Source of the DNA: Elusimicrobia bacterium RIFOXYA2_FULL_39_19
Lineage (GTDB): Bacteria > Elusimicrobiota > Endomicrobiia > CG1-02-37-114 > XYA2-FULL-39-19
DNA: 64,000 nucleotides
Assembly (NCBI GenBank): GCA_001800285.1
Contig: MGVC01000014.1
Coordinates: 1,756-65,755 of the forward strand
Direction: 5' to 3'
Shown: one piece after another, positions 26,574-53,647 of the stretch
How positions within the stretch are numbered: the first letter of the stretch is position 1
Layout of the letters: every line of letters starts with the position of its first letter
The notes under the pieces: generated by a model
The model's database searches: none
Seen by the model: only the letters and a program-made list of their open reading frames with translations
Told to the model about the DNA's origin: nothing
Made by a program: the position numbers and the translations under genes

Positions 26574-26640
26574 TGATTAGGTTGTTAAGTGGTTAGTAAA
26601 TTATTTTAACTAAACACTAACCACTTAATCACTATTCACT
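26574..26640. repeat. Imperfect palindrome. The core is a 13-bp perfect inverted repeat, ttaagtggttagt (26586-26598) and actaaccacttaa (26616-26628), with flanking gtgatta direct repeats.
   Basis: Seen directly in the sequence. It lies immediately 3' of the motB paralog 2 stop and 5' of the tandem repeat array. Confidence 0.6.
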
Positions 26641-26645
26641 ATTTT

Positions 26646-27305
26646 TTATCTAATTACATTTATTTCAATTCTTCTGTTTTGTGCCCTGTTTTCGGGTGTA
26701 TCGTTCGGGTAAAGGGGCCTGAACTCGCCATACCCTGCCACTATAAACTTTTCTGACGACATTCCCTTTACTTTGGTAAAATAGTCAATTACACTTACAG
26801 CCCGGGCAATAGACAATTCCCAGTTGGTTGTATATCTCCCCGCTTTTAACGGTATATTATCAGTATGCCCTTCAACAACAACTTTATTGGGCAGTGCTTT
26901 CAGAGACTTGGCTATTTCATCTAATCCCAACGCTGTTTCTTTAGTAATTTCTACTTTACCTGTTTCAAAAAGCACAGGAGAAGTAAGCAGGATACGTATC
27001 ATTTTATCATTAACTTCAAGTTTTGCCAGTTTATCCAGTTTTTCTTTTTCTGAATCCAGCTTGCTTACCGCTTCCTGTTCCTGAATCTGCTTTAAAATTC
27101 TTTGGGCGCGGTCCGTCATGGCGGCATCCTTGCTTACCATGCTGGTTAGGGCAGACTGAATATTAGTTCTTTTGCTTTCATCCATACGGGTAAAAGCATA
27201 GGACATTAGAAAGAACAAAGTCAGGTTTGTAATAATATCCGCATATATTGTCAGCCAGATGGAACTTTGCTGCATTATTCTTACCGGCCGTTTACGTTTT
27301 TTCAT
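26646..27305 (-). CDS. motB: MotB/OmpA-family stator protein, paralog 2.
   Basis: N-terminus ..SSIWLTIYADIITNLTLFFL is a MotB-type TM with the conserved Asp. The C-terminus ..VVEGHTDNIPLKAG..TNWELSIARA..NRRIEINVIR is the OmpA-like domain. Confidence 0.8.
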   Translation of the reverse strand: MKKRKRPVRIMQQSSIWLTIYADIITNLTLFFLMSYAFTRMDESKRTNIQSALTSMVSKDAAMTDRAQRILKQIQEQEAVSKLDSEKEKLDKLAKLEVNDKMIRILLTSPVLFETGKVEITKETALGLDEIAKSLKALPNKVVVEGHTDNIPLKAGRYTTNWELSIARAVSVIDYFTKVKGMSSEKFIVAGYGEFRPLYPNDTPENRAQNRRIEINVIR

Positions 27306-27369
27306 GATTAACGAACAATGTTAGGGGATTAATTTATTGTTTATGGGCAAATAAGTTTGCCCTTATATT

Positions 27370-28149
27370 TTATAACTTGCTGTTAGCCAGCGACTGTTCT
27401 CTTAAGATTGCAGATAAATAACCCTCAAGTTTTTTTGCCGTTATTACAGGCACATCACCTTTATGAATTGAAACAATGCCTTCAGTAATGAGTTCCATGT
27501 TAAGAATTTCATCTTCACTGTATTCAGACAGTTTTACAGCAACGGGTAAAAAAGCAAAATTAGCGGCAAATATGCCGAAAAATGTAGCAGCCACAGCTGT
27601 TGCCATAGCGGCACCCATGGAAGTAGGGTCGGTAATATTTCTTAATACCTGCACAACACCCAGCAGGGTTCCCAGCAATCCGAAAATAGGCGCTACAGTA
27701 GCCATCATTCTAAATACGCTGGCAACTTTCTGATGCCTTTCTCTTACGTACAAAATTTCTTTTTCCAGATTGTCTTCGATAATGTCTATATCGTAACCGT
27801 CTATGAGCATTTGCAGGGCATTTCTAAAGAACTTGTCTTTTAATCCGGCTACTTCAGGCTGGAGGCCGGAAAACCCTGAACGTTTGGATTTTTCTGAAAG
27901 GCCTACAACAAGTTCTATCATTCTCAAAGATGATTCTCTTTTATTTGGGAAGAAAGCCAGACTGAAAGCCTTAGGTATGGCTTTGATAGTTGTCCAGGGA
28001 TAAGCAATGAGAGTAGAGGAAAGAGTACCTATTACAACCAGCAGAAACGCATCAAGATTAAACAACATATGCACAATTTCACCGCGCGCCATGACTATGT
28101 AAATTGCAACTACTCCGATAATTGCTCCGCCAACCGTTAACAAATCCAT
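27370..28149 (-). CDS. motA: MotA/PomA-family proton-channel stator protein. It has four TM segments with a large cytoplasmic loop between TM2 and TM3.
   Basis: 259 aa. The TM1-TM2 pair sits at the N-terminus. A ~100-aa charged loop (..RESSLRMIELV..) follows. Conserved prolines are present in TM3 (TVAPIFGLLGT) and TM4 (AFLPVAV), as in MotA. A GGGGGA Shine-Dalgarno lies upstream. Confidence 0.85.
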   Translation of the reverse strand: MDLLTVGGAIIGVVAIYIVMARGEIVHMLFNLDAFLLVVIGTLSSTLIAYPWTTIKAIPKAFSLAFFPNKRESSLRMIELVVGLSEKSKRSGFSGLQPEVAGLKDKFFRNALQMLIDGYDIDIIEDNLEKEILYVRERHQKVASVFRMMATVAPIFGLLGTLLGVVQVLRNITDPTSMGAAMATAVAATFFGIFAANFAFLPVAVKLSEYSEDEILNMELITEGIVSIHKGDVPVITAKKLEGYLSAILREQSLANSKL

Positions 28150-28171
28150 TTATTTTCCCCCAAAAATATTT

Positions 28172-29608
28172 TTAAATAAGTTCAATTATGCCTTCGGCAT
28201 TTAATTTTCTTATGCTTTCAATAACCCGGCGTTTTTCTTCGATGATTCTTTGTGCTGATAAAGGTTTACCCAACTCCATTTCCTGTTGAAGCCTTTTTCT
28301 GCCGGCTTCAGTAAGCGCTTCCATGATTTTTGCTGTATATTGTTCCGGCATGGTTTTAAGAATCTGCGCAAAAGCTGAAAGATTTATCCTGCGCATAACG
28401 GTTTGCAGAGTTTCACCGCTGAAATTGACTATATCCTCAAAACTGAAGACGGATTTCATTAATTTGGCTGCAAGGGGCGGATTCTTGGCCTTAAAATTAG
28501 CAATGATTTTGTCCTGAGTTGCTTTATCGCTGTAATCAAGCAGTTTAACAAGTATTTCATCACCGCCAAGAGAATAATTAAGGGTGTCTCTAACTTTCTG
28601 TTCAAGGGATTTTACAGCGTCAGGGTCCATCTGTTTCACGTTTGAAAATAATTCGGATACTTTCATTTTCTGATCCGCATTTAAATCAGCAAACAACTTG
28701 GAAGCCATATCTCTGTCAATGTAATTTAGAATTACCGCTATGTTTTCAGAACTTTCTGTTTTAATTGATTCTCTTAACTGATTTATTTCCTGAGGGACAA
28801 TAAACCAGAATGGTTTTCTGTTTTCACTATCGTGAGATAAAGATGCAGTCTGAGCTGACGCAGTTTCTACGGAAGTTGACTGCTGGTTTTGCGCGCCAAA
28901 ATCCTGACTTGAAGTGTTTGCTTCTTTTTGGGCCGCTACCAGTCCGGCAATAACTTCTACCAGGCTTTTTGAAAATATTTTAAATGGATTGAACAAAAAC
29001 AATACTGAGCCGAAAACAAAAAATGTTGCAAGGGCAATTATAATAACCCAGTATAGATTAGGCGGATAAAGCAGAGAATACCAGTAAAAAGGATTTTGTT
29101 TAAAATTCATTCTTTCAATTATCAGCTGGTCCCCGCGGGTTTCATCGATACCCAGTAACCCGAAAGCCACTTTTTTCATAATTTCTATCACGCTTGCGGA
29201 GACAGCTTTATCAACTATAATGGTTGCACTGATTTTCTTTATGGCGGTTTTTGTTTTTCCTATATCCAGCGGCGCTAATAAATCCTCTATTTTTCTTTCT
29301 CCGATATTTTCTTTAACAGGCACTCCTGGCAGTACCATTTTAGGCCGTTCATCAACAGTTTTAATCTGAAGTTCCTTTTTTTCTTTTTCACTGTACATCT
29401 CTGTATTGATGATAATGATAATTTTTTCCGTACCGGCAATTTCAGTAAGAACCTTTCTTAACCTGTCTTCCAGGCTTGTTTCTATCTGGATTTTTGTTTC
29501 AATACTGGTTTCGGCAATATCCGCCGCAAAGATTTGTTTGGGAGCCTGAAAAACCAACAATGAAGCAAAAATAAATAGCGCCACGAACTGATAAAACCTT
29601 TTTTTCAT
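28172..29608 (-). CDS. Membrane-anchored protein with FliG middle + C-terminal-like (FliG_MC / MgtE_N-like) domains. It has a signal peptide, a ~170-aa N-terminal domain and a central TM segment; the FliG-like region is C-terminal and presumably cytoplasmic.
   Basis: The C-terminal ~230 aa align to the FliG M and C domains. The segment NIAVILNYIDRDMASKLFADLNADQKMKVSELF matches the EHPQ-region ARM repeat. The segment ..KLMKSVFSFEDIVNFSGETLQTVMRRIN..LAFAQILKTMPEQYTAKIMEALTEAGRKRLQQEMELGKPLSAQRIIEEKRRVIESIRKLNAEGII resembles the FliG_C MFvFEDI..D..iq.vlrev...LalALkg...elrek....mskRaaemlkedle.lgpvrl.dve.aq..I. Signal peptide is MKKRFYQFVALFIFASLLVFQA. TM is VIIIALATFFVFGSVLFLF. An AGGAGA Shine-Dalgarno is present. 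Confidence 0.7.
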   Translation of the reverse strand: MKKRFYQFVALFIFASLLVFQAPKQIFAADIAETSIETKIQIETSLEDRLRKVLTEIAGTEKIIIIINTEMYSEKEKKELQIKTVDERPKMVLPGVPVKENIGERKIEDLLAPLDIGKTKTAIKKISATIIVDKAVSASVIEIMKKVAFGLLGIDETRGDQLIIERMNFKQNPFYWYSLLYPPNLYWVIIIALATFFVFGSVLFLFNPFKIFSKSLVEVIAGLVAAQKEANTSSQDFGAQNQQSTSVETASAQTASLSHDSENRKPFWFIVPQEINQLRESIKTESSENIAVILNYIDRDMASKLFADLNADQKMKVSELFSNVKQMDPDAVKSLEQKVRDTLNYSLGGDEILVKLLDYSDKATQDKIIANFKAKNPPLAAKLMKSVFSFEDIVNFSGETLQTVMRRINLSAFAQILKTMPEQYTAKIMEALTEAGRKRLQQEMELGKPLSAQRIIEEKRRVIESIRKLNAEGIIELI

Positions 29609-35988: not shown

Positions 35989-38142
35989 TTATAGAACAGG
36001 CTTCATGTCAAGTATCTGTAATTGTACGTTTTCTTTATTCTGCCAGCGGTTTATTTCAACCTGTACAACCACATCAATAAATTTTGAAAGGTTCAATACC
36101 GTTGATGACATTTCACCCAGGTTCCAGCCGATGGCGTAAATATTATTCCCATTTTCCTGCATTTTTAAACGCAGGTGGTTATACCCTGCCCCTACTTGCG
36201 AATGTTCCTCTACCTTTACATTATTAATAAGAAAAACAGGATAAGGATTTTCTATACCAAACGGTTCTAATTCGTTAAGTTCATTTACAAGTTCAATTTT
36301 TATTTTAGAAAGGTTAAGTTCAGAGTCTATCTCTATTTTTTGTTCCATCATTTCTTTGTTTATTTCATTTTCCGCCATTTCAAGCATGCGTTTTTTAAAC
36401 TCAGGTATTTTATCTGTCATTACCGTAAAACCAACTGCCTGGGAATGACCGCCGAATTTTACCAGCAGGTCAGCGCATTTTTCTATAGCAGAATAAATAT
36501 TAAAACCTTCTATAGACCTGCCTGTGCCTACCGCCTCGGTTCCTTCCGAAATCAGAAGCATGGTAGGCCGGTGATACTGGCGCACTATCTGAGAAGCGAC
36601 TATTCCTGTTACTCCATGTTCCATGCCGGAACCTGTTACAAAAAACAGTTTATCTTTCTCAATACTGCATTGTTTCCTTAAAAGGTCTATGAATATATCA
36701 ATATTTTCAGACTGCAGTTCTTTACGTTCTTCGTTAAGTTTGATTATCTGATCTAAGATTTTTTCCGCTTTCTGGACATCTTCCGCTATTAGAAGTTCTA
36801 CCGCCAGCTCAGCCCTGCCAAGCCTTCCGCAGGCGTTTAAAAGCGGTATAATGTTAAATGAAATTGTTTTTGTATTTAAATCTTCGCTTTTTGAATACTG
36901 TTCTATCAAAAGTTTTAACCCAATACGTTTTGTTTTCTTTAAAGAACCTATACCTTCTTTTACAATTATCCTGTTTTCTGATATCAGGGGCATCATATCA
37001 CTTATGGTGGCTATACAGGCAACATCCATATTGTCCTGCAGGAAATATTTCAATCTGTTGTTTCTTATTCGTTCAAGCCTCTCAAAAACCTTGCAGGTAA
37101 GCAGGGCGTCTTCCAGAGCTTTTTTTGAATGAATCTGTTCCAAACCCAGGTTTCCCGTTACAGAACCCAGGCCGTAGGATTCAAAAGGAAAGTAATCTCT
37201 TGAAAGAACCAGTGTATCAATAACTTCATTTTCAAAATCTTTTCCTAAATACTTTTTTGTAAACTGCCTGATAAAACCGATATTAAACTCTGCGTTATGC
37301 GTAACAACGGTACTTTTTTCTATGAATTCAAGCAGTTTTTTTACGGCATTTTCTGAACTACCTTTTTCTACCTGCAGCTGGAAACTTTCCTGAACAACGA
37401 AGTTTTTAATTTTAAGTGCGCCTATTTCAGTAATGTCGTCAAAAACCGGATGGAGGCCGCTGGTTTCAATATCAAACACCACAATTTCTTTGTCATAATA
37501 TTTGTCATAGGACATCATAAGTCCTTCACAGAATTTCAATGCTACGGAACAACCGGAGAGTTCACAGAAAGGATATTTTGAATCTTTTCTCTTTGGATCC
37601 ACTACGGCTACAGCATCCTGAGGAAGAATTTTAGGAGGTTCGTGATGGTCTGTTACTATAACTTCTGCTCCCAGGGATTTTGCATACGTAATCTCATTTG
37701 AATTTGTTATACCGCAGTCAACAGTAATTATCAGTTTTACGCCCTGCTGGATATATTTATCAATTACGTTTTTGTGCATCCCGTAACCTTCATTAGAAGG
37801 AATATACCACAAAGGCTCATCACCAAGCATTTTCAGCGTGGAATAGACAACTGTCACGGAAGAAACGCCGTCTAAATCTCTGTCACCGTAAATAAGAATC
37901 TTTTCTTTTTTTTCAACAGCCTGGCGTACTCTGGCTACAGCTTTGCTCATGTCTGTCATGAGAAACGGGTTTGCCAGGTCATAAAACGAAACATTCATAA
38001 ACATATTTGCTTCTTTTATGCTTTTTATGCCTCTGTTTACCAGAACTGTTGCTAATGTTACGGAAACATTAAGGCCTTGGGAAATATCATCCACAATCCG
38101 GGAATTATGCTGTTTTAAAATCCATTTTTTAGGAATATTCAT
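35989..38142 (-). CDS. recJ: RecJ-like DHH/DHHA1 single-strand exonuclease with a DnaQ-like DEDDh 3'-5' exonuclease domain inserted into the DHH domain.
   Basis: DHH motifs are present (..ILIYGDRDLDGVSS.., VTDHHEP). RecJ motif IV (ACIATISDMMPLISENRIIVKEG) and the DHHA1 GGH motif (FGGHSQAVGF) are present. Between them lie ExoI (VVFDIETSGL), ExoII (THNAEFNIGF) and ExoIII (H..ALEDALLTCKVF) motifs of the epsilon/DnaQ family. Confidence 0.75.
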   Translation of the reverse strand: MNIPKKWILKQHNSRIVDDISQGLNVSVTLATVLVNRGIKSIKEANMFMNVSFYDLANPFLMTDMSKAVARVRQAVEKKEKILIYGDRDLDGVSSVTVVYSTLKMLGDEPLWYIPSNEGYGMHKNVIDKYIQQGVKLIITVDCGITNSNEITYAKSLGAEVIVTDHHEPPKILPQDAVAVVDPKRKDSKYPFCELSGCSVALKFCEGLMMSYDKYYDKEIVVFDIETSGLHPVFDDITEIGALKIKNFVVQESFQLQVEKGSSENAVKKLLEFIEKSTVVTHNAEFNIGFIRQFTKKYLGKDFENEVIDTLVLSRDYFPFESYGLGSVTGNLGLEQIHSKKALEDALLTCKVFERLERIRNNRLKYFLQDNMDVACIATISDMMPLISENRIIVKEGIGSLKKTKRIGLKLLIEQYSKSEDLNTKTISFNIIPLLNACGRLGRAELAVELLIAEDVQKAEKILDQIIKLNEERKELQSENIDIFIDLLRKQCSIEKDKLFFVTGSGMEHGVTGIVASQIVRQYHRPTMLLISEGTEAVGTGRSIEGFNIYSAIEKCADLLVKFGGHSQAVGFTVMTDKIPEFKKRMLEMAENEINKEMMEQKIEIDSELNLSKIKIELVNELNELEPFGIENPYPVFLINNVKVEEHSQVGAGYNHLRLKMQENGNNIYAIGWNLGEMSSTVLNLSKFIDVVVQVEINRWQNKENVQLQILDMKPVL

Positions 38143-38180: not shown

Positions 38181-39875
38181 TTACATTATCAAATCTTTAT
38201 GTTTTGTAAGGGTAATATCTAAGGCCAGGTTTAAATATCTGTAATCTTTATTGAGCTCATCCCAGGACAAATATTGAAGCGATATTTTTGCGTTTTCCAT
38301 TATTGCAGTGATATTTGACATAAAATCTTCCGAATGAACATTTGCTTCCGGCGGAGGTCCGATTACCACCGTAATGCTTACTTTATTTGTTTTGCATAGT
38401 TCAGAAAACATATTGTAATTCATTTTTGAATTACCAATATAACTTCTGTCAAATACGCTTTCCAGCCTGAATTTAAGATTATGTTTTTTAATAACGTCCC
38501 TGAATTTTTCTTTAGCTTTAATAAGTTCCTGTTCTTTGCCTTCCGGAAAGAAAAAAACAATATCAATGGCCCTTAGGTTTTTGTCTACTCCGTCTATTTC
38601 AACCGGTTTTTGAACCGCTGTAATAGGAACTTGCGCGGCTTGCGGGGGCTTTACAGGTGCCAGCGTTGGGGCAGGTTGTGGTTTTACAATTGGCTGAACC
38701 GGTACTGAATAAACCTGGGCAGGCGGTTGAGGTGTAATTTGCTGCACTTCCGGCGACGGAGCTTCATCTTCCGGATCGTTCGGCAATAAATCTTTCATCA
38801 ATGATTTTACCATTTCCATATCAACAGTCTGATTTGTTATAGAAGCATAAGCATTGATTCTTTTTAAAAATCCTTCTAATTCCCTTATGTTTGATTTTAA
38901 TTTTGAAGCAACATATAAAAGCATATTATCATCAAGATTTACCTGTTCCGTCTCACCTTTTCTTTTCAAAATAGCTACACGGGTTTCAAGTGACGGTGAC
39001 TTTATGTCCGCTATTAAACCCCATTCAAACCTTGATTTTAGCCTGTCCTCAAGGGTAGTCAGCTGCTTAGGTGGCCTATCACTTGTGAGCACAATTTGCT
39101 TCCCGCTCTGGTGTAAAATATTAAATGTATGAAAAAACTCTTCCTGTGTTGATTCCGATTCGGCAAGAAACTGGATATCATCTACTAAAAGCAGGTCCAT
39201 CTGGCGGTACCTGTCTCTGAATTGTGCAAGAGTACCGCGCCCGATTGAATCTATAACTTCGCTTATGAATTTTTCCGATGTTACATAGAATACTTTCAGG
39301 TCCGGGTATTTTTTGCAAGCAAAATGTCCTATAGCCTGCATAAGGTGTGTTTTGCCCAGGCCTACTCCGCCGTAAATAAAAAGCGGATTGTAAACTTTCC
39401 CAGGATTTTCTGCTACAGCCATGCCGGCGGCATGGGTAAAACGGTTGCTTGAACCGACTACAAATTCTTCAAATGTGTATTTTGCGTTCATTGACAATTT
39501 AAAGAAATCATCATTTCCTGAAACAGCTTTTTGGCGGGCAGGAGTTGTTGTTTCCGGCTGAGGAACCTGAGCCGGCGGTTCCGGAATCGGATTGGGTGCA
39601 GCAGGAAGGGGCACATCCGGGATAACTGCTTTTTGAGGCTGGGTTGATTTGTCTGTTAAAATATTTCTTAAATCATCAAGCTTCTGGTCATTTAAATCAT
39701 AAATATAAATACCGAAATTATATTCATCACTGAAAGAAGCAAAGGGACGGCCGCTGTCGACTTTTAATGCCTGAAGCAGATCATTTAGTTCTTCTTCAAC
39801 AATTCTGATTTTCAGGCGGTACCTATTTTTATCTTTATCGCTGGGTGAATGTGCAAGTTCAAATTTTTCAAGCAT
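38181..39875 (-). CDS. DnaA-like AAA+ ATPase lacking the C-terminal DNA-binding domain IV. It carries instead a Pro-rich linker plus a ~120-aa C-terminal domain of unknown function.
   Basis: Core ..NAKYTFEEFVVGSSNRFTHAAGMAVAENPGKVYNPLFIYGGVGLGKTHL..LLVDDIQFL..SNIRELEGFL shows the DnaA domain III Walker A/B and sensor 2. No HTH/DnaA box-binding region follows sensor 2. The Pro/Gln-rich segment ..PQPPAQVYSVPVQPIVKPQPAPTLAPVKPPQAAQVP.. follows, then a domain homologous to the C-terminus of the 39881..40858 product. Confidence 0.7.
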   Translation of the reverse strand: MLEKFELAHSPSDKDKNRYRLKIRIVEEELNDLLQALKVDSGRPFASFSDEYNFGIYIYDLNDQKLDDLRNILTDKSTQPQKAVIPDVPLPAAPNPIPEPPAQVPQPETTTPARQKAVSGNDDFFKLSMNAKYTFEEFVVGSSNRFTHAAGMAVAENPGKVYNPLFIYGGVGLGKTHLMQAIGHFACKKYPDLKVFYVTSEKFISEVIDSIGRGTLAQFRDRYRQMDLLLVDDIQFLAESESTQEEFFHTFNILHQSGKQIVLTSDRPPKQLTTLEDRLKSRFEWGLIADIKSPSLETRVAILKRKGETEQVNLDDNMLLYVASKLKSNIRELEGFLKRINAYASITNQTVDMEMVKSLMKDLLPNDPEDEAPSPEVQQITPQPPAQVYSVPVQPIVKPQPAPTLAPVKPPQAAQVPITAVQKPVEIDGVDKNLRAIDIVFFFPEGKEQELIKAKEKFRDVIKKHNLKFRLESVFDRSYIGNSKMNYNMFSELCKTNKVSITVVIGPPPEANVHSEDFMSNITAIMENAKISLQYLSWDELNKDYRYLNLALDITLTKHKDLIM

Positions 39876-39880
39876 TTATG

Positions 39881-40858
39881 TTAGCCTTTATGAAGCATCA
39901 GTTCTATTACCAAATCCACATACGTTAATTTTCTATTTATCTGGGTGACGGGTATTGCATAGAAAAATATACCGGTCCCCTGGATTCTGTTTTTAATTTC
40001 CGAAGGGTCATAACCGTCAGGATGAATAACAAAAATATCTTTTACCTGTTTCTCCCGGCACAAGTCTATCATCTGTTTCCAGTCTATAGTTAAAATATCA
40101 ATACCGCATTCAAGAGCACATTCCGGAACTCCGGGCTTCTTGCTGGTTTTCTTAAATACATCTACAAGATTTTTTGCAAAGGTGTCTTTTAAATCGTTTT
40201 GGCCTGCCGGATAAAAACATGCAAAACTTAATGCTTCTTCTTTTGTTTTAGTTTCGACCGGCGGTTGGACCTGAGGAACTGCCGGTACTACGGGCACAGT
40301 GACGGGCGCCGCAGGTTTAGCAACAACGGGTACTTCAGGAACCTGCGTAACATTTACAGAAGGTGTTTGTTCAATGAATAATGGTTTAAACGGTGATGGT
40401 GGGCCTGCCAGTGGTACGGCAGGATGCTGTTTTATTGATTGCTGAAAAGGAGATGGCGCAGGTTGTTGTACGGGTTTTGGCGGGACTGCCTGCTGAGGCG
40501 GCACCGGAGTAACTGGATACTGAGGTACCTGTGGTTTTACCGGTACCTGAGCTGCCGGAGGCTGAAATCTCGGCATTTCGGGCTGAACTTTGACAGCCGG
40601 AGGCTGTTGAGGGACTGATGGTTTAAGTTGGGGTTCAGCAGCAGGTTTAGCCGGCACGTACTGCTGTTGTGCCGCTTTTGGATAAAATTTATCTACGGCT
40701 TCTTTTGCCTGCGAGGAAAATATATCGCTTCCCACCTCGCCAAGTTTTTTTTCTATCTTATTTACTACCTGCTGTTTTTCTTCCTTGGTCAGGTCTGTTA
40801 AAACTTTTTTCAGTTCACCTAGAATGTCCTGAAGGTCCTGCTTGTCTTCACCCGGCAT
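39881..40858 (-). CDS. Coiled-coil / proline-rich protein. Its C-terminal domain is shared with the DnaA-like protein.
   Basis: The N-terminal ~70 aa are predicted coiled coil. The central ~130 aa are P/Q/V-rich. The C-terminus ..FACFYPAGQNDLKDTFAKNLVDVFKK...KDIFVIHPDGYDPSEIKNRIQGTGIFFYAIPVTQINRKLTYVDLVIELML aligns with ..VFFFPEGKEQELIKAKEKFRDVIKK...VSITVVIGPPPEANVHSEDFMSNITAIMENAKISLQYLSWDELNKDYRYLNLALDITL of the DnaA-like protein. Confidence 0.55.
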   Translation of the reverse strand: MPGEDKQDLQDILGELKKVLTDLTKEEKQQVVNKIEKKLGEVGSDIFSSQAKEAVDKFYPKAAQQQYVPAKPAAEPQLKPSVPQQPPAVKVQPEMPRFQPPAAQVPVKPQVPQYPVTPVPPQQAVPPKPVQQPAPSPFQQSIKQHPAVPLAGPPSPFKPLFIEQTPSVNVTQVPEVPVVAKPAAPVTVPVVPAVPQVQPPVETKTKEEALSFACFYPAGQNDLKDTFAKNLVDVFKKTSKKPGVPECALECGIDILTIDWKQMIDLCREKQVKDIFVIHPDGYDPSEIKNRIQGTGIFFYAIPVTQINRKLTYVDLVIELMLHKG

Positions 40859-40876: not shown

Positions 40877-41953
40877 TTACATCATTTCCTGGAACATACC
40901 CTTAAGCTTAAGCTGCAAATCTTCCGGATTTGTAGCTTTATCCAGAGCTTCTTCCAGTCTAATTTTCTTTTCTGTATATAGCTTATTTAAATACTGATCA
41001 AAGGTGTGCATTCCATAATACTCGCCCTGCTCCATTGCTTTATATAATTCCTGTGTTTTATTTTCCAAAATAAGTTTCCTTACTAATGATGTACCTACCA
41101 GTACTTCTGTAGCAGGTATTCTTCCTTTGCCGTCAATAGTTGTACATAACCTCTGGGCAACTACACCTCTGAGTACATTTGAAAGTTGAATTCTTGCCTG
41201 GCGCTGTTGATGCTCCGGATAAGTATCTAAAATCCTGTCTATGGTCTGTACAGCATCAATGGTATGAATAGTCGAAAGCACAAGATGGCCGGTTTCTGCA
41301 GCTGTAATACCTGCAGAGATTGCTTCGTATTCTCTCATTTCGCCCATTACTACTATGTCCGGGTCCTGCCTTAATACATATTTCAAGGCGTTTTTAAATG
41401 ATTTTGTGTCTATTCCTATTTCTCTCTGGGAAATGGATGATTTTTTGTCTTTGTGATAAAACTCAATGGGGTCTTCAACGGTAATTATATTATAGCTGAA
41501 ATTTGCATTTATATGATCCAGTATTGAATTCATTGTCGTGGTTTTTCCCGCACCTGTTACACCGGTAACAAGTATCAAGCCCCTGGGCTGGGCTGCTAAT
41601 TTTTTCAGTGTTTCTCCCGGCAGGTTTAATTCATCAAATGTTTTTATTTTAACCGGCACCACCCTTAATGTAAGTGCCATGGTGTTTCTCTGCCTGTAGA
41701 TATTTATTCTGAAACGGGATACGTTTTCAACAGCGTAAGACACGTCAAGTTCATTTTCCATATTGAACTTTTCTTTTTGCTCTTTCGTCAGCATGGTATC
41801 CGCAAGCTCTTCAATCTGTTTTGAAGTAAAATTTTCAAAATCCGATGACATAAGCTTGCCGTATATTCTTATAAGCGGGGGTGCATCTGCTTTAAAATGG
41901 ATGTCGGAAATACCTGCTTTCACCATTAGCTTTAATAATTCATTAATGTTCAT
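40877..41953 (-). CDS. pilT: Type IV pilus retraction (twitching motility) ATPase PilT.
   Basis: MNINELLKLMVKAGISDIHFKADAPPLIRIYG is a PilT N-terminus. Walker A is GVTGAGKTTT, Walker B is DPDIVVMGEMRE, and His/Asp boxes are present. Start taken at the internal ATG at 41953 (M7 of the track ORF). Confidence 0.85.
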   Translation of the reverse strand: MNINELLKLMVKAGISDIHFKADAPPLIRIYGKLMSSDFENFTSKQIEELADTMLTKEQKEKFNMENELDVSYAVENVSRFRINIYRQRNTMALTLRVVPVKIKTFDELNLPGETLKKLAAQPRGLILVTGVTGAGKTTTMNSILDHINANFSYNIITVEDPIEFYHKDKKSSISQREIGIDTKSFKNALKYVLRQDPDIVVMGEMREYEAISAGITAAETGHLVLSTIHTIDAVQTIDRILDTYPEHQQRQARIQLSNVLRGVVAQRLCTTIDGKGRIPATEVLVGTSLVRKLILENKTQELYKAMEQGEYYGMHTFDQYLNKLYTEKKIRLEEALDKATNPEDLQLKLKGMFQEMM

Positions 41954-41971
41954 TGCCATAATTGCCCCCAA

Positions 41972-44835: not shown

Positions 44836-45861
44836 CTACTTATTAGGTTCGATAATTACTTTTATTGAATCTTTTGCTTCGGCAGTAAGCTTAAAACCAA
44901 GTCCTATTTCCGCCATGGGCAGTTTATGCGTTATCATTTTATTTAAAGGCATTTTTTTTGAACGTATATATGTGATAGCCGACTGTATGTCATTTGGTGC
45001 GCCACCATAAGAGAACAACATCTTTATCCCATTTCTCCAATGATCGTTAATTGGCAGGGCAACGGGTTCACCTTTTGAATTTGGCGCAAAAAATAAAATT
45101 GTTCCGCCTTTATCAATACACTCAAAAGCCTGAGCAAAAGCTATGGGGGCTCCTGTAGAAACTATTATATAATCCGCTTTTCTACCGTCATTTGCTTTAA
45201 GAACAGCTTCAAGCACGTTATCTTTTGAATTTATAGAAACATCCGCACCCATTTCTTTTGCGGCATTTAAACGGTATTCACTGATATCTGTTGCAATGAT
45301 TTTTCCCATACCTATAACCCTGGCCAGTGCAATATGTAGCAATCCAGCCATGCCGCTGCCAAGCACAAGCAATGTTTTCCCAGGTTTAAAACCTGCTGTT
45401 CTCTGGCCGCGGACTATGCAGGCAAGAGGCTCTATAAACACACCGTCATCAAAGCTCATGTCTTCAGGCAGCACTTCAATGCCTCTATCAACATTAATTT
45501 CCGGCACACGCAGATATTCCGCAAAACCACCTGGATAAAAATTTGTTTTCTGAAGTGTTTCACAGGCAGTATGTTCGCCGTTAAGGCAGTAAAGGCAGAT
45601 ATTGCATGGAACATGATGGGAAACAAATACCCTGTCACCAACTTTATATTTTTTTACTTCTGTGCCGGTTTTCACTATCTCGCCGGTTATTTCATGTCCC
45701 AAAACCAGAGGAGCTTTTTTTATTCTGTACCATTCAAGCACGTCGCTGCCACAGATACCGCTGGCAATTACTTTTACCAGCACTTCTTTGGGGCTGATTT
45801 CCGGCACGGGCATTTCCTGCACCCGCACATCGCTGTTGTTGTACCACATGGCAACGCGCAT
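44836..45861 (-). CDS. Zinc-dependent medium-chain alcohol dehydrogenase (threonine/sorbitol dehydrogenase-like).
   Basis: The catalytic-zinc motif GHEITGEIV, the structural-zinc Cys cluster (C..C..C......C) and the Rossmann motif GSGMAGL are present. Confidence 0.8.
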   Translation of the reverse strand: MRVAMWYNNSDVRVQEMPVPEISPKEVLVKVIASGICGSDVLEWYRIKKAPLVLGHEITGEIVKTGTEVKKYKVGDRVFVSHHVPCNICLYCLNGEHTACETLQKTNFYPGGFAEYLRVPEINVDRGIEVLPEDMSFDDGVFIEPLACIVRGQRTAGFKPGKTLLVLGSGMAGLLHIALARVIGMGKIIATDISEYRLNAAKEMGADVSINSKDNVLEAVLKANDGRKADYIIVSTGAPIAFAQAFECIDKGGTILFFAPNSKGEPVALPINDHWRNGIKMLFSYGGAPNDIQSAITYIRSKKMPLNKMITHKLPMAEIGLGFKLTAEAKDSIKVIIEPNK

Positions 45862-45882
45862 TTTTTTACCTTGTACTAAAAA

Positions 45883-46665
45883 CTATTTTTTCTTCAGAGA
45901 ATTAAAAAGGTTAAACGCTTCTTCAACCGATGCTTTTTTATGTACCACAGCCCTGACAGCCTGAATCATGGCCACAGGATAATCTGACTGGAATATATTT
46001 CTTCCCATATCTACGCCGACAGCGCCGTTTGATATGGCATTATGCGCAAGTTTAAGGGCTTCTTTTTCTTCAAGTTTTTTGCCGCCGGCAATAACTACAG
46101 GCACAGGGCAGGTTTCTACTACTTTTTCAAATTCATCGCAGTAGTAGGTTTTTACAATGTGTGCCCCAAGCTCTGCGCAGATTCTGCAGGCTAAGCTTAA
46201 ATACCTGGCGTCACGCACCATATCTTTGCCTACAGCCGTTACTGCTAAAACTGGAATACCGTATCTTTGGCCGGCATCTACAAGTTTGCCTAAATTTATA
46301 AGAGTTTCTTTTTCGTTTGGAGAACCTACAAATACCTGCAGGGCTACACCGCAGACATTCAGCCGAATGGCATCTTCCATGGCTACTGTAAGGCTTTCGT
46401 TGGAAAGTTCGCTTAAAATACTTGTGCCTCCGGAAACTCTTAAAACTATGGGTACAGGGGTTTCAGGATTTACGCTTGAACGCAACACGCCTCTTGTAAG
46501 CATAAGTGTATCTGCGTACGGCAATAAAGGTTCTATGGTTTTCCCCGGTACTTCAAGGCCGGACGTAGGCCCCAGAAAATAGCCGTGGTCAACGGCAAGC
46601 ATAACTGTTTTACCTGTATCCGGTTTTATTATTCTAGCTAATCTGTTTTTTAATCCCCAATCCAT
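45883..46665 (-). CDS. Class I aldolase of the DhnA/FbaB (DeoC/LacD-like) family.
   Basis: ..[21 protein letters not shown].. and a TIM-barrel-like pattern typical of DhnA-type fructose-bisphosphate aldolase. Confidence 0.65.
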
Positions 46666-46712
46666 ACTGAAAATCCTCCGGTTGTAATCGATAGAAATTA
46701 TTTATAATTCCG

Positions 46713-46740
46713 TTGCAAACCCGAAGGTTTGCAATTTTTA
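46713..46740. other. Perfect 9-bp stem-loop (ttgcaaacc-cgaa-ggtttgcaa) with a T-run on the plus side, between pduL and the aldolase gene. It may be a terminator/attenuator-like element.
   Basis: Seen directly. The loop reads UUCG in minus-sense. The T-tract is on the plus side only, so it is not a classical terminator for the minus-strand genes. Confidence 0.3.
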
Positions 46741-46753
46741 TAATATTTTTTAT

Positions 46754-47341
46754 TTACAGTATTACTATTTTATCGCCGTTTTTGAGCAAACAGGCATTTG
46801 CTTCATCTGTATCCAGGTGGCATTCTGCTGCAAAATCGCTTTTTACCCTGCATATTACATCACCGAATATTGTTTCTCTACCGGTGCCAATACCTACTTT
46901 AATCTGTACAACTTCAGTATCTTTTATACCAAGTTCCTGCGCATCTGCCGGAGCAAGATGAACGTGTCTTTTTGCTATAACACAACCTTCTTTAAGGTCA
47001 ACTTTTCCTTTTGGACCTATTAGAGTTATCGGTGTTGAGGCTTCAAGTTTACCAGATTCCCGTACCGGCGGGTTTACGCCAAGGAAGAAACTGTCTGTTT
47101 TTGATACTTCTACCTGAGTCTGTTTTCTGGTAGGGCCGATTATCCTTACGTTTTCAATTTTATTTTTTGGGGTGACTATTGTTACTGTTTCTTTGCATGC
47201 ATACTGGCCGGGCTGAACAAGGTCTCTAATATTGGTGAGTTTTGATCCTGCTCCGAAAAGTATTTGCAAATCTTCTTCTGATACGTGGAGATGCCTGTTT
47301 GATATGTTTGCCATTATTGGTTTTTTTGATCTGTCTGTCAT
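46754..47341 (-). CDS. pduL: Phosphate propanoyltransferase / phosphotransacylase PduL family.
   Basis: Two internal repeats with ..ISNRHLHVSEEDLQILFG.. and ..IAKRHVHLAPADAQELG.. motifs characteristic of PduL. Size is ~195 aa. Confidence 0.65.
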   Translation of the reverse strand: MTDRSKKPIMANISNRHLHVSEEDLQILFGAGSKLTNIRDLVQPGQYACKETVTIVTPKNKIENVRIIGPTRKQTQVEVSKTDSFFLGVNPPVRESGKLEASTPITLIGPKGKVDLKEGCVIAKRHVHLAPADAQELGIKDTEVVQIKVGIGTGRETIFGDVICRVKSDFAAECHLDTDEANACLLKNGDKIVIL

Positions 47342-50859: not shown

Positions 50860-51756
50860 TTAAGTGCGCGGATGCGCTTTTTCATATACTTTTTTTAGTC
50901 TTTCTGTTGTTACGTGAGTATAAATTTGAGTTGTTGCCAGATTTTTGTGGCCCAGCATTTCCTGTACGCTTCTTAAGTCACAACCTGCATCAAGCATGTG
51001 CGTTGCAAAAGTATGGCGTATTACATGAGGTGAAATGTGTTTATTTAGTGATACTTTTTGAACCCATTTATCCAGTATTTTTCTTACAAATCTATCTGAA
51101 ATGCGTGTTCCTTTATAATTCAAAAATAGTGCGTTTTCTTGTTTGCCTGGAACCATTTTCTTTCTTCCATCAATATATTTATACAAAACTTTCAACGCAG
51201 TATCTCCTACCGGCACAATCCTTTCCTTATTTCCTTTGCCAATAACTCTTACTGTATTGCTAAAAAAATCTATACTATCAAAATTCAATGATACCAACTC
51301 ACTAATTCTTAATCCGCAGGAATACAACAATTCCAGCATTGACTGGTCCCTAAGACCAAATTCAGAAGAGTTTTTTTCTAAATCAAGTAATTTCCCCATT
51401 TCTTCTTTGCTAAGAAACATAGGGAGTGTTTTTTTTACTTTGGGCGAGGTGACATATTTTGAAATATTCTTTAGAGTTATTCCTTCTTGAATGAGGAATT
51501 TCGAAAATGATTTTATAGAATATATTTTTCTTGATACTGTTGTAGAATGCAGGTTTTTATCAGCTAAATAAGCAAGATAAGCTCGTATGATTAATCTGGC
51601 ATTTTTCTCCAGATTAGCATCGGTTCCGAATTTATTTGTTATAAACAACGAAAACTCAACCAGGTCGTGCTGATAGGCATGTATTGTATGAAGGGAAAAA
51701 CTTCTTTGCCTTAAAGCTAATATAAATTTTTTTATCAGGATGCTTAAATCATCCAT
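50860..51756 (-). CDS. Tyrosine site-specific recombinase XerC/XerD family.
   Basis: The C-terminal catalytic motifs ..RHTFATHMLDAGCDLRSVQEMLGHKNLATTQIYTHV (R..H-R-Y) are present. Start taken at M30 (51756) so the gene does not overlap topA. Confidence 0.8.
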   Translation of the reverse strand: MDDLSILIKKFILALRQRSFSLHTIHAYQHDLVEFSLFITNKFGTDANLEKNARLIIRAYLAYLADKNLHSTTVSRKIYSIKSFSKFLIQEGITLKNISKYVTSPKVKKTLPMFLSKEEMGKLLDLEKNSSEFGLRDQSMLELLYSCGLRISELVSLNFDSIDFFSNTVRVIGKGNKERIVPVGDTALKVLYKYIDGRKKMVPGKQENALFLNYKGTRISDRFVRKILDKWVQKVSLNKHISPHVIRHTFATHMLDAGCDLRSVQEMLGHKNLATTQIYTHVTTERLKKVYEKAHPRT

Positions 51757-53647
51757 TGTATTGCTGTTTTCCTTTACACCTTGGAAAGTTTGAACATGAA
51801 TAGAATTTACCGAATCTGCTGGTTCGCAAATACATATTCGCACTGCATAAAGGGCATTTTATCTCTGTTAATATAGGTTTTTGTTTTTCTTCGATCTTGC
51901 TTTCAGCATGATCCATCTTTGCGTTAAACGGGGTATAAAATTCACTTACTACTTTTTCCCATTCCATTTTTCCATCAGCTATTTCATCAAGTTTTTCTTC
52001 GACGCTTGCGGTAAAATTAATATCCACAATTTCACTGAAATAGGACTTCAGTAAATCATTAACAGATATACCTATCTCCGACGGATAGAATTTTCTACTT
52101 TGAATAAACACATATTTTCTATTAAGAATATTAGATATTGTTGGCGCATAAGTTGAAGGTCGGCCTATGCCGTGTTTTTCAAGAGTTTTAATCAAGCTTG
52201 CTTCATTGTATCTTGGTGGAGGTTCTGTCTGATGCTGGCTATAAAGTACTTCGAGAAGTTTTAATATTTCATTAACTTCCATCTCAGGAATTATTTTTTC
52301 CTGAGGTGTATCTTCTCCGGAATCTTCTTCCTCTATTTCGTTCATTACTTTCAAGAATCCGGGAAAAATCAGAGTTCTGCCGGCCGCGCTGAACAAGTAT
52401 TCCCCTGCCGTAATTTGCACGTTTACACCGTCATATCTGGCTTCAGACATTTGGCTGGCAACAAATCTCTGCCAAATCATTTTATATAACTTCATCTGAT
52501 CTGGGTTTAAGTATTTACTAATTGTTTCCGGGTCCCGAAACACACTGGTAGGCCTTATTGCTTCATGCGCTTCCTGAGCTCCTTTTGATTTTGTTTTGTA
52601 GATGCGTGGTTTTTCGGGAAGATATTCTTTTCCTATTTTTTCTGTTATGTATTTTGTTGCTTCCACCTGAGCCTCTTTTGCTACGTTTACCGAATCAGTT
52701 CTCATGTAAGTTATTAAACCCACAGTACCTTCCGGAAGGTCAATACCTTCATACAAAGACTGGGCTATACTCATAACCCTGAATGAAGATAAACTTAGTT
52801 TTCTGACAGCATCTTGCTGAAGTGTAGATGTGGTATAAGGTGCCGATGGGTTTCTGTTTATTTTCTTTTTCGTTATTTCTTTTACCTGATACTGGGCTTT
52901 CTGAAGTTCCTGAATTATTGAATCACAGTTTTCTTTTGTTTTTATTGTTGAGCTTCCTGCAGTATATTTTTCGGCAAAAAACTCATGCACGGTCTGTTCC
53001 TGGAATTTAACATTGTTTTTTGAAATAAGGTCTGCAGAAAACTCAATGTTATCTTTAGAAAGCATAGCACTTATTTTATAGTATTCGCTGGATTTGAAGT
53101 TTTTTATTTCAAACTCTCTTTCTACAATAAGCCGTACCGCAACCGACTGAACTCTTCCTGCAGAAAGACCTGATGCAACTTTTCTCCATAATAGAGGGGA
53201 AAGTTTGTAACCCACAAGACGGTCCAGTATTCTGCGGGCCTGCTGAGAATCTACAAGCGTTAAATCAAGTTTTCTCGGCTTTTTTACTGCTTCCCTGATT
53301 GCTTCCTTTGTAATTTCATGAAAGGTTATTCTTTTCGCTTTCTTTTCATCTATTTTCAGTATTTGCGATAAATGCCATGCAATAGCTTCACCTTCCCGGT
53401 CAAAGTCAGTTGCAAGATATACATTATCCGCTTTTGAAACAAGCTGGGTTAATCCGGCGACAATTTTTTTTGCTCTGGATATTACCAGATAGGTAGGTTT
53501 AAAACCCTTTTCAACATCAACACCAAGAGATGTTTTCGGCAAATCCCTAACGTGTCCATAAGAACTTTTTACAATAAATTCTTTTTTGTCTAAAAATTTT
53601 GAAATGGTCTTTTCTTTTGTTGGTGACTCAACGATAACTAAGTTCAT
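51749..53647 (-). CDS. topA: DNA topoisomerase I.
   Basis: The TOPRIM N-terminus is MNLVIVESPTKEKTISKFL. The active-site region and a C-terminal C4 zinc ribbon (..CPLCSANM..CSNFPRC..) are present. Confidence 0.85.
   Translation of the reverse strand: MNLVIVESPTKEKTISKFLDKKEFIVKSSYGHVRDLPKTSLGVDVEKGFKPTYLVISRAKKIVAGLTQLVSKADNVYLATDFDREGEAIAWHLSQILKIDEKKAKRITFHEITKEAIREAVKKPRKLDLTLVDSQQARRILDRLVGYKLSPLLWRKVASGLSAGRVQSVAVRLIVEREFEIKNFKSSEYYKISAMLSKDNIEFSADLISKNNVKFQEQTVHEFFAEKYTAGSSTIKTKENCDSIIQELQKAQYQVKEITKKKINRNPSAPYTTSTLQQDAVRKLSLSSFRVMSIAQSLYEGIDLPEGTVGLITYMRTDSVNVAKEAQVEATKYITEKIGKEYLPEKPRIYKTKSKGAQEAHEAIRPTSVFRDPETISKYLNPDQMKLYKMIWQRFVASQMSEARYDGVNVQITAGEYLFSAAGRTLIFPGFLKVMNEIEEEDSGEDTPQEKIIPEMEVNEILKLLEVLYSQHQTEPPPRYNEASLIKTLEKHGIGRPSTYAPTISNILNRKYVFIQSRKFYPSEIGISVNDLLKSYFSEIVDINFTASVEEKLDEIADGKMEWEKVVSEFYTPFNAKMDHAESKIEEKQKPILTEIKCPLCSANMYLRTSRFGKFYSCSNFPRCKGKQQYNG

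What the first reader, a model, noticed from the sequence alone, without database searches (positions are those of the whole stretch)
38181..40858. DnaA-like AAA+ protein without the DNA-binding domain IV, paired with a Pro-rich coiled-coil protein that shares its novel C-terminal domain.
38181..39875 has a textbook DnaA domain III (Walker A GGVGLGKTHL, Walker B LLVDDIQFL, sensor 2 NIRELEGFL) and an N-terminal region with a Pro-rich linker. After sensor 2 the HTH domain IV is replaced by a P/Q/V-rich linker and a ~120-aa domain. That domain aligns with the C-terminal domain of the adjacent 39881..40858 product (FFFPEGKEQELIKAKEKFRDVIKK vs FACFYPAGQNDLKDTFAKNLVDVFKK; VSITVVIGPPPE..ITAIMENAKISLQYL vs KDIFVIHPDGYDPS..IQGTGIFFYAIPVTQI). 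Two neighbouring genes with the same orphan domain behind long Pro-rich linkers suggest a hetero-oligomeric pair. One partner is a nucleotide-dependent DnaA-derived switch. It may be a non-replicative DnaA paralog co-opted for some scaffolding or regulatory role.
Basis: seen in the sequence. Interest (0 to 1): 0.7.

Follow-up and report, generated by a model that had tools for sequence, protein, structure and literature searches.

The report
Domain-swapped DnaA paralog with partner
A gene pair conserved in Elusimicrobiota bacteria: a copy of the replication-initiator ATPase DnaA has lost its DNA-reading and helicase-recruiting domains and carries two uncharacterised domains shared with its neighbour gene, which suggests an undescribed ATP-driven regulator or scaffold that databases currently label "DnaA".

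Summary
Gene A (38181..39875, minus strand; OGS22459.1, Elusimicrobia bacterium RIFOXYA2_FULL_39_19) has an intact DnaA AAA+ domain III, 59% identical to B. subtilis DnaA. It lacks domain IV and also domain I. Domain I is replaced by a ferredoxin/ACT-like fold. Domain IV is replaced by a long Pro/Gln linker and a 4-stranded alpha/beta domain whose closest structural neighbours are Argonaute MID domains.

Gene B (39881..40858) ends in a true homolog of that C-terminal domain. BLASTP finds nothing, but profile-profile comparison gives 93.5% probability, rising to 99.3% (E 1e-20) with larger alignments.

The domain occurs in only 128 of 1.84 billion representative proteins, almost all from Elusimicrobiota, and always at the C-terminus. 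A B-type gene lies directly upstream of A in 29 of 44 related loci.

ATPase and arginine-finger motifs are invariant in 164 family members. The canonical ssDNA-binding B-motif lysine is never present. No DnaA-box cluster, dnaN or GC-skew switch lies nearby.

The best reading is a non-initiator DnaA paralog acting as a nucleotide-gated scaffold or regulator with B. A canonical dnaA in the same genomes could not be checked, so a sole, radically divergent initiator remains possible (about 15-20%).

The parts
38181..39875 (-). Gene A: DnaA-family AAA+ protein, 564 aa (OGS22459.1). Architecture is NTD, linker, DnaA domain III, P/Q linker, CTD.
   Evidence: ORF; Pfam and NCBIfam; 100% identical to P0001.
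39648..39875 (-). A N-terminal domain (aa 1-76). The fold is beta-beta-alpha-beta-beta-alpha, ferredoxin/ACT-like, and is not DnaA domain I.
38781..39503 (-). A DnaA domain III (aa about 125-365): Walker A K175, Walker B D232/D233, sensor I, arginine finger R282, sensor II R331.
   Evidence: PDB match to B. subtilis DnaA 8btg at E 1.8e-96. 59% identity, and the motifs are invariant in 164 family members.
39150..39158 (-). Codons S240-E241-S242. These sit where canonical DnaA has the B-motif 'GK(E/T)' (E. coli K243, B. subtilis K222). The lysine is lost.
   Evidence: Alignments to B. subtilis, T. maritima and A. aeolicus DnaA. Across 164 members the position is S 126, A 33, G 2, D 2 and K 0. 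Role of K243: PMC8235120 and PMC6868365.
38568..38780 (-). A Pro/Gln/Val-rich linker (aa about 366-436). Its length varies from 88 to 237 aa across the family, and one subfamily has a C4 zinc ribbon inserted here.
38184..38567 (-). A C-terminal domain (aa 437-564). It is a 4-stranded parallel alpha/beta domain, beta1-alpha1-beta2-alpha2-beta3-alpha3-beta4-alpha4, with an Argonaute-MID-like fold.
39881..40858 (-). Gene B: 325 aa hypothetical protein (OGS22460.1, A2252_01325). It has a conserved N-terminal helix, a Pro-rich linker and a CTD paralogous to that of A.
   Evidence: no Pfam or NCBIfam family.
39884..40243 (-). B C-terminal domain (aa about 206-325), homologous to the A CTD.
   Evidence: hhalign 93.5% and 99.3%, E 1.2e-20; reciprocal HMM hits.
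40724..40858 (-). B conserved N-terminal helix motif (..DLQDILGELKKVLTDLTKEEK..).
   Evidence: Conserved in B-type proteins from many lineages.
40877..41971 (-). PilT-family type IV pilus retraction ATPase, 18 nt upstream of B. It is a frequent but not universal neighbour.
   Evidence: TIGR01420 at 455 bits. PilT lies directly upstream of B/A in 26 of 44 loci.

Best explanation
Gene A encodes a DnaA-derived AAA+ ATPase that is not a conventional replication initiator.

A complete, catalytically competent DnaA domain III sits inside a lineage-specific scaffold. The scaffold has a ferredoxin/ACT-like N-terminal domain, long flexible Pro/Gln-rich linkers and a C-terminal alpha/beta domain with a MID-like fold. 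Gene B, immediately upstream, is the same scaffold without the ATPase. It has a conserved helix, a linker and the paralogous CTD, and in other lineages it also has the same NTD.

The most likely mechanism (inferred):
- A binds ATP and oligomerises through DnaA-type arginine-finger contacts, either with itself or by joining oligomers of the genuine DnaA. The second option would explain why its AAA+ surface has stayed 59% identical to B. subtilis DnaA.
- A cannot read DnaA boxes, because it has no domain IV.
- A cannot recruit helicase in the usual way, because it has no domain I.
- A probably cannot hold unwound ssDNA, because the B-motif lysine is replaced.
- The tethered NTD and CTD couple the ATPase state to B, either by CTD-CTD pairing or by binding a common target.

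This would make a two-gene, nucleotide-gated scaffold or regulator.

What is shown: the domain architecture, the homology of the two CTDs, conservation of the gene pair, the state of the motifs and the genomic context. What is inferred: oligomerisation, the A-B interaction, and that A is a paralog rather than the only DnaA.
For: Architecture.

CTD homology.

The CTD is confined to this system. It occurs in 128 of 1.84e9 representative proteins, always at the C-terminus. The long proteins carry DnaA domain III and the short ones are B-type.

Gene pair: a B-type gene lies directly upstream of A in 29 of 44 loci, including 10 loci without PilT. In the window the genes are 5 nt apart.

Modularity of the NTD and CTD: NTD-helix-CTD, NTD-CTD, REC-REC-helix-CTD and NTD-GGDEF proteins all exist. 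This argues for regulatory or targeting modules.

ATPase and oligomerisation motifs are invariant in 164 members, while the canonical B-motif lysine is absent in all of them. In E. coli, K243A blocks DUE unwinding (PMC6868365), and K243 is conserved and important for ssDNA binding (PMC8235120).

A is not at an origin:
- No DnaA-box enrichment: 24 hits versus 19.4 expected, and no perfect box.
- No GC-skew switch at 38-41 kb.
- No dnaN, recF or gyrB in the window or in 44 loci. The context is always tpiA/rpiB/deoC upstream and transketolase/PNP/recJ downstream.

No member was found in cultured Elusimicrobium or Endomicrobium, although MAGs labelled with their orders carry it. In E. minutum, dciA is reported in or next to the dnaA-dnaN-recF-gyrB-gyrA replication operon (PMC5109545). 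Together these imply that a canonical dnaA is ancestral in the phylum.
Against: Domain III is as conserved as a real initiator's. It scores above the trusted cut-off of the DnaA equivalog model, and the ssDNA H-motif Ile is retained.

The A-B interaction and any hetero-oligomerisation with DnaA are untested.

A subfamily carries a zinc ribbon in the linker. This could be a replacement DNA-binding element.

The absence from cultured species rests on a single-motif genome scan and two top-120 lists.
Confidence: 0.55

Rival explanations
1. A is the only DnaA of these bacteria. On this view it is a radically remodelled chromosomal initiator in which origin recognition (domain IV) and helicase recruitment (domain I) have been handed to new modules: the MID-like CTD, the linker zinc ribbon in some lineages, the NTD and/or partner B.
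For: TIGR00362 scores 373 bits, above the 343.9 cut-off. Domain III is 59% identical to B. subtilis DnaA, and all ATPase and arginine-finger motifs and the H-motif Ile are kept. The gene is vertically inherited in a fixed housekeeping context across classes. No second DnaA was seen in the window, in the contig extensions or in 44 loci. Every database annotates it as DnaA.
Against: The B-motif lysine needed for unwinding is absent in 164 of 164 members. No DnaA-box cluster, skew switch, dnaN, recF or gyrB lies nearby. The family was not found in cultured Elusimicrobium or Endomicrobium, which must have an initiator (PMC5109545). If A were the sole initiator, those genera would have to have re-acquired a canonical DnaA. 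The absence of a second dnaA has only been checked over about 85 kb of this genome.
Confidence: 0.17
2. A and B work with the type IV pilus or DNA-uptake machinery. In this view a DnaA-like ATPase and its adaptor are targeted to the PilT motor or the pilus base, for example to handle incoming ssDNA in natural transformation or to regulate pilus retraction by c-di-GMP.
For: PilT lies directly upstream of B/A in 26 of 44 loci. A GGDEF cyclase carrying the same NTD lies directly upstream of PilT in L020, L022 and L026. RecJ is 38 nt downstream, and ComM, DprA and TopA are 10-20 kb away in the window. ComM and DprA lie just downstream of a divergent A in L054.
Against: At least 18 loci have A without PilT, and 10 of these still have B. 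The ssDNA-binding lysine is lost. The comM-dprA-topA and recJ neighbourhoods look like general conserved gene order rather than an operon link. PADLOC and Pfam give no pilus-related domain in A or B.
Confidence: 0.13
3. The MID-like CTD is a true Argonaute-type nucleic-acid 5'-end binder. On this view the pair is a guide- or end-dependent nucleic-acid sensing or defence module.
Against: There is no sequence-profile signal to Ago. Foldseek E-values are equally good for lumazine synthases, so the match may only reflect a generic flavodoxin-like fold. By a manual alignment anchored on secondary structure (unverified), hAgo2 K566 and K570 correspond to Asp/Thr in A and Glu/Leu in B. There is no PIWI, APAZ or nuclease partner and no PADLOC hit. 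The chromosomal synteny is fixed rather than island-like.
Confidence: 0.05
4. The shared C-terminal domain is a chance or low-complexity resemblance, and A is simply a truncated or mis-assembled dnaA.
For: Pairwise BLASTP finds nothing.
Against: Profile-profile E is 1.2e-20 and the HMM hits are reciprocal. The AF2 fold is confident. The identical gene is seen on 9 independent contigs. More than 160 full-length homologs share the same architecture.
Confidence: 0.01

Closest known systems
Canonical bacterial DnaA (TIGR00362 / PF00308 + PF08299 + PF11638)
   Same: The AAA+ domain III, including the lid, is 59% identical to B. subtilis DnaA. Walker A/B, sensor I/II, the box VII arginine finger and the H-motif hydrophobic residue are all conserved. 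The protein scores above the DnaA equivalog cut-off.
   Different: It has no domain IV HTH and no domain I. The B-motif lysine is replaced by Ser or Ala throughout the family. It carries new N- and C-terminal globular domains on long Pro/Gln linkers. It is not next to dnaN or to a DnaA-box cluster. It is paired with a scaffold paralog, B.
Hda / HdaA (DnaA-related regulatory inactivator)
   Same: It is a DnaA-family AAA+ protein without the DNA-binding domain IV. Plausibly it acts on or with DnaA rather than on DnaA boxes.
   Different: Hda models score far below their cut-offs, 107 versus 194.8 bits. A is much closer to DnaA proper than Hda is. It has extra NTD and CTD domains. No clamp-binding N-terminal peptide is evident.
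Argonaute/PIWI MID domain
   Different: No sequence-level similarity was detected. The 5'-phosphate-binding lysines appear not to be conserved (manual alignment, unverified). There is no PIWI domain. Lumazine synthase and other flavodoxin-like folds score nearly as well.
Tethered-domain scaffold proteins with long Pro/Gln linkers (e.g. ZipA, PopZ-type organisers; from general knowledge)
   Same: Small globular interaction domains are separated by long, compositionally biased, length-variable linkers, and paralogous partners are encoded side by side.
   Different: There is no sequence or fold relationship. Here one partner carries a DnaA ATPase. No membrane anchor was detected. This is an analogy only and was not tested.

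Membership tests
DnaA chromosomal replication initiator | AAA+ domain III with Walker A/B, sensor I/II and box VII arginine finger | tested here: met
   Pfam Bac_DnaA E 2e-72. PDB 8btg E 1.8e-96. The motifs are invariant in 164 members.
DnaA chromosomal replication initiator | C-terminal domain IV helix-turn-helix that binds DnaA boxes (PF08299) | tested here: not met
   No PF08299 hit and none in more than 130 homologs. The TIGR00362 alignment stops at profile position 364 of 437. The C-terminal 128 aa fold as an alpha/beta domain.
DnaA chromosomal replication initiator | N-terminal domain I (KH-like; self-interaction and helicase recruitment) | tested here: not met
DnaA chromosomal replication initiator | ssDNA-binding H-motif (E. 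coli V211) and B-motif (E. coli K243) residues | tested here: not met
   The H-motif Ile is kept in 155 of 164 members, but the B-motif lysine is never present: S 126, A 33, G 2, D 2.
DnaA chromosomal replication initiator | Location at or near oriC: DnaA-box cluster, dnaN/recF/gyrB neighbourhood, GC-skew switch | tested here: not met
DnaA chromosomal replication initiator | Being the genome's (only) initiator | not testable with these tools
   The whole genomes could not be scanned. Only the window, about 85 kb of the contig, and 10 kb either side of the related loci were readable.
Hda/HdaA | Score above the family cut-off; short protein of domain III only with an N-terminal clamp-binding motif | tested here: not met
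   TIGR03420 scores 107 bits against a 194.8 cut-off, and the other Hda models score lower. A is 564 aa with extra domains.
Argonaute MID domain | Rossmann-like 4-stranded MID fold | tested here: met
Argonaute MID domain | Detectable sequence homology and the conserved 5'-phosphate pocket (Y/K/Q/K) | tested here: inconclusive
   There is no profile hit to any PDB Ago and no Ago among the 128 library hits. hhalign against hAgo2 MID gives probability 0.7%. The pocket residues were compared only by eye, because no coordinates were available for a superposition.
Argonaute MID domain | Fusion to or association with a PIWI domain | tested here: not met
   No PIWI domain is present in A, B or their neighbours.
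DnaC/IstB helicase-loader ATPases | Score above the family cut-off | tested here: not met
   IS21_help_AAA scores 56.6 against 200, and DnaI scores 32 against 228.

The most novel reading that the evidence does not exclude
In free-living Elusimicrobiota this protein is the actual chromosomal initiator. That would make it a DnaA whose DNA-recognition and helicase-recruitment domains were both replaced, with origin selection done by a MID-like domain, a zinc ribbon or the co-encoded partner B. It would be the first bacterial lineage that initiates replication with a DnaA lacking the DnaA-box-binding HTH.
Probability: 0.15. Interest if true: 0.95.

Novelty: new variant of a known kind. Interest (0 to 1): 0.68.

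Why it matters
DnaA is among the most conserved bacterial proteins, and its four-domain plan is treated as universal. Here a phylum-wide, vertically inherited family keeps a near-canonical DnaA ATPase but swaps both functional end domains. It is also paired with an ATPase-less paralog of its own scaffold.

If the family is a paralog, it is a new kind of DnaA-derived switch. It may be a regulator or tether of the real initiator, and it gives a natural experiment on what DnaA domain III can do without DNA-box binding. If it is the only DnaA, it overturns the assumed universality of DnaA-box recognition.

There are practical consequences as well. The family passes the trusted cut-off of TIGR00362, so every source annotates it as 'chromosomal replication initiator protein DnaA'. 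To my knowledge TIGR00362 is also one of the bac120 phylogenomic markers. If so, this family can distort origin prediction, marker-copy counts and contamination estimates for Elusimicrobiota MAGs.

Finally, the work defines two domains that are not in Pfam. One of them has a MID-like fold.

Tried and rejected
- Pairwise BLASTP of the two CTDs found no alignment. It was superseded by the profile methods.
- Sequence-profile searches of the CTD and NTD against the PDB gave only noise.
- hhalign of the CTD profile against the hAgo2 MID sequence gave probability 0.7%. MID homology is therefore not claimed, only fold similarity.
- The Foldseek afdb50 library was unavailable.
- PADLOC gave no defence-system match for A, B or their neighbours, so the defence-island idea was dropped.
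- A DnaA-box scan found no enrichment or cluster. The promoter/terminator scan was at chance level and uninformative.
This covers only a small part of any genome.
- A third protein search with an Endomicrobiia-type member, run to look for isolates (E. proavitum, E. minutum, Ca. E. trichonymphae), found only MAG proteins.
- Literature: no paper describes this architecture. The Rs-D17 genome paper (PMC2291132) and an id tried for the E. minutum genome paper were not held. The reported 'dnaA pseudogene' of Ca. E. trichonymphae (PMC5174739) therefore could not be assigned to the canonical type or to this type.
- PilT as an obligatory partner was rejected, because 18 of 44 loci lack it next to A.
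Full report
**What is at the coordinates.**
Both ORFs lie on the minus strand, as does every credible gene in the 64-kb window. A is 38181..39875 (564 aa) and B is 39881..40858 (325 aa). They are 5 nt apart. A PilT-family ATPase ends 18 nt upstream of B, and RecJ starts 38 nt downstream of A.

The proteins are identical to OGS22459.1 and OGS22460.1 (hypothetical protein A2252_01325) of the MAG 'Elusimicrobia bacterium RIFOXYA2_FULL_39_19'. The same locus was assembled independently on at least nine contigs, so it is not an assembly artefact.

**Checking the observation.**
A matches Pfam Bac_DnaA at E 2e-72 (residues 130-289) and has no Bac_DnaA_C hit. It scores 373 bits against the DnaA equivalog model TIGR00362, above the 343.9 cut-off. 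The alignment covers only profile positions 77-364 of 437, so neither domain I nor domain IV is matched.

Against solved structures, the best hit is B. subtilis DnaA (8btg, E 1.8e-96). The alignment ends where domain IV would begin.

- hhalign of 120 A tails against 5 B tails gives 93.5% probability, E 2.4e-7, over 115 columns end to end.
- HMMs of each tail, searched against all 356 ORFs of the window, pick out only the other gene (E 6.8e-5 and 3.9e-3).
- After enlarging both sets to 173 and 31 sequences, hhalign gives 99.3%, E 1.2e-20.

An AlphaFold2 model of the last 128 residues of A is confident (pLDDT 93). It is a four-stranded parallel beta/alpha domain.

No sequence-level link to Argonaute was found. 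In a manual alignment anchored on secondary structure, the lysines that bind the 5'-phosphate in hAgo2 fall on Asp/Thr in A and Glu/Leu in B. That alignment is unverified. I therefore call the domain 'MID-like in fold' and do not claim homology or nucleic-acid-end binding.

**Family and distribution.**
Two protein searches returned more than 130 full-length homologs at 42-98% identity. All lack PF08299, all are from Elusimicrobiota MAGs, and all that carry a name are annotated 'chromosomal replication initiator protein DnaA'.

A profile of the C-terminal domain was scored against 1.84 billion representative proteins. It found 128 proteins at E<=1e-3, always with the domain at the C-terminus and never in an Argonaute.

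Architectures among 262 collected proteins:

| Architecture | Count |
|---|---|
| NTD-AAA-CTD | 127 |
| NTD-AAA-CTD with a C4 zinc ribbon in the second linker | 18 |
| AAA-CTD (mostly N-terminally truncated) | 26 |
| helix-CTD (the window's B type) | 17 |
| NTD-CTD | 11 |
| NTD-helix-CTD | 2 |

One protein has two receiver domains in place of the NTD. The NTD also heads GGDEF diguanylate cyclases encoded just upstream of PilT in three loci.

By eye, several A proteins (P0014, P0018, P0023, P0066, P0109) carry a B-like helix motif right after the NTD. A then looks like a B-type scaffold (NTD-helix-linker-CTD) into which a DnaA ATPase was inserted.

Named sources are Elusimicrobiota. The exceptions are one MAG labelled Ignavibacteria and one labelled Caldisericota.

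**Genomic context.**
A motif-based scan of one genome per GTDB species gave 42 loci, all MAGs or SAGs. The annotated loci share one gene order:
- Upstream: tpiA, (pduL-like PTAC), rpiB, deoC.
- Often next: a TPR protein, DUF4136 and PilT.
- Then B and A.
- Downstream: transketolase, PNP and recJ.

A non-ATPase CTD gene sits immediately upstream of A in 29 of 44 loci. Several of the remaining loci are cut by contig ends. PilT is present in 26 loci, and 10 loci keep B-A without PilT. The core is therefore the B-A pair, and PilT is a frequent but facultative neighbour.

None of the loci contains dnaN, recF, gyrB or a DnaA domain IV. The window has no DnaA-box enrichment (24 one-mismatch hits versus 19.4 expected, and no perfect box). 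It has no GC-skew switch near 38-41 kb.

**Is it an initiator?**
Across 164 family members the catalytic and oligomerisation residues are almost invariant:
- Walker A Lys: 163 of 164.
- Walker B DD: 163-164 of 164.
- Arginine finger R282: 163 of 164.
- Sensor II R331: 162 of 164.

Domain III is 59% identical to B. subtilis DnaA, against a median of 70% within the family. One functional position is systematically different. B. subtilis, T. maritima and A. aeolicus DnaA all have 'GK' two residues after the Walker B box, which is the B-motif (E. coli K243). The family has (E/G/Q/N)-(S/A) there and never Lys. K243 is conserved and important for ssDNA binding (PMC8235120). K243A blocks DUE unwinding without affecting nucleotide binding (PMC6868365).

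A is thus predicted to bind and hydrolyse ATP and to oligomerise like DnaA. It lacks the three things that make DnaA an initiator: box recognition, the domain I interaction hub and a full ssDNA-holding site.

No member was found in cultured Elusimicrobium minutum, Endomicrobium proavitum or Ca. E. trichonymphae, although MAGs labelled Endomicrobiales and Elusimicrobiales carry it. For Elusimicrobia (E. minutum), dciA is reported within or beside the dnaA-dnaN-recF-gyrB-gyrA replication operon (PMC5109545). The simplest history is that a canonical dnaA is ancestral in the phylum and this family is an additional, dispensable paralog.

This is inference. I could not scan any A-bearing genome for a canonical dnaA. 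The reported dnaA pseudogene of Ca. E. trichonymphae (PMC5174739) could not be typed.

**Most likely mechanism (confidence about 0.55).**
A and B form a two-gene, nucleotide-gated scaffold or regulator.

Shown:
- The shared end domains.
- The conserved adjacency of the two genes.
- Intact ATPase and arginine-finger motifs.
- Long flexible linkers of variable length (88-237 aa).
- Recombination of the NTD and CTD with signalling domains (REC, GGDEF).

Inferred:
- ATP-dependent oligomerisation of A.
- Association of A with B through the paralogous CTDs, or through a common target.
- Possible co-assembly of A with the genuine DnaA.

The co-assembly idea rests on one argument. A homo-oligomer could let its interface drift, whereas an interface that must fit the slowly evolving canonical DnaA would stay canonical. 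That would explain the unusually high conservation.

**Rivals.**
- A is the sole, remodelled initiator (about 0.17).
- A pilus- or DNA-uptake-linked function with PilT (about 0.13).
- A true MID-type nucleic-acid-end sensor (about 0.05).
- A chance resemblance or truncated gene: excluded.

**Comparison with what is known, and novelty.**
The ATPase belongs to the DnaA family proper, not to Hda, DnaC or IstB, whose models score far below their cut-offs. Yet A fails four of the five testable defining features of the initiator. Neither end domain is in Pfam or NCBIfam, and I found no paper describing the architecture.

I rate it a new variant of a known kind. It is a DnaA-derived ATPase in a new, conserved two-gene module, and it is currently mis-annotated throughout public databases.

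Noticed in passing
window 3910..24501 (-): A giant ORF of 6863 aa with a TTG start. Gene callers give 6856 aa, with only weak or faint fn3/Ig-like Pfam hits. It coincides with the only stretch of positive GC skew in the window.
   Followed up: partly
window 25551..29608 (-): Directly downstream of the giant gene is a cluster encoding a FliG-like protein (FliG_M/FliG_C domains, 478 aa), a MotA/ExbB-family channel and two MotB/OmpA-like proteins. A TPR protein follows. This may be a stator-rotor-like module without other flagellar genes in view.
   Followed up: no
window 35989..38142 (-): The RecJ gene immediately downstream of A carries an RNase_T/DnaQ-like 3'-5' exonuclease domain (aa 259-353) inserted between its DHH and DHHA1 domains.
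   Followed up: no
L020:4202-5653, L022:5165-6589, L026:5350-6792: In these loci the A-type N-terminal domain is fused to a GGDEF diguanylate cyclase encoded immediately upstream of PilT-B-A. This hints at c-di-GMP signalling in the same module.
   Followed up: partly
P0102, P0077, P0209, P0219, P0169, P0188, P0208 (related proteins): A subfamily has one or two C4 zinc ribbons in the linker between the ATPase and the CTD, for example 'CLTCGQKLTYVEKYDRWYCHNCKKYAP'. They could be a DNA- or protein-binding add-on.
   Followed up: partly
L053:4036-5667 (P0212): A B-type protein whose N-terminus is two response-regulator receiver domains (REC-REC-helix-linker-CTD). It sits among histidine kinase and response regulator genes rather than next to an A gene.
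   Followed up: partly
window 50860..59997 (-) and L054:13124-15795: The window has a comM (Mg-chelatase-like), dprA, topA and xerC/D-type integrase block 10-20 kb from A. In a divergent lineage, ComM and DprA lie two genes downstream of a 1187-aa A-type protein. Whether this is functional linkage or general synteny is unclear.
   Followed up: partly
L055:1-9013: In one lineage the tpiA/PTAC/rpiB/deoC block upstream of A is expanded into a bacterial microcompartment locus with BMC and EutN shell proteins, an aldehyde dehydrogenase and an RnfC-like protein. The window's PTAC, DeoC and ADH genes (44836..47341) may be a remnant of such a locus.
   Followed up: no
L013 (JBGFRZ010000084.1) and P0226 (RLD16702.1): Two family members come from MAGs labelled Ignavibacteria and Caldisericota. 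This is either mis-binning or rare occurrence outside Elusimicrobiota.
   Followed up: no
window 38181..39875 (-): A exceeds the trusted cut-off of TIGR00362 despite lacking domains I and IV. Automated pipelines therefore name it DnaA. This is relevant to origin prediction and to marker-gene copy counts in Elusimicrobiota MAGs.
   Followed up: partly
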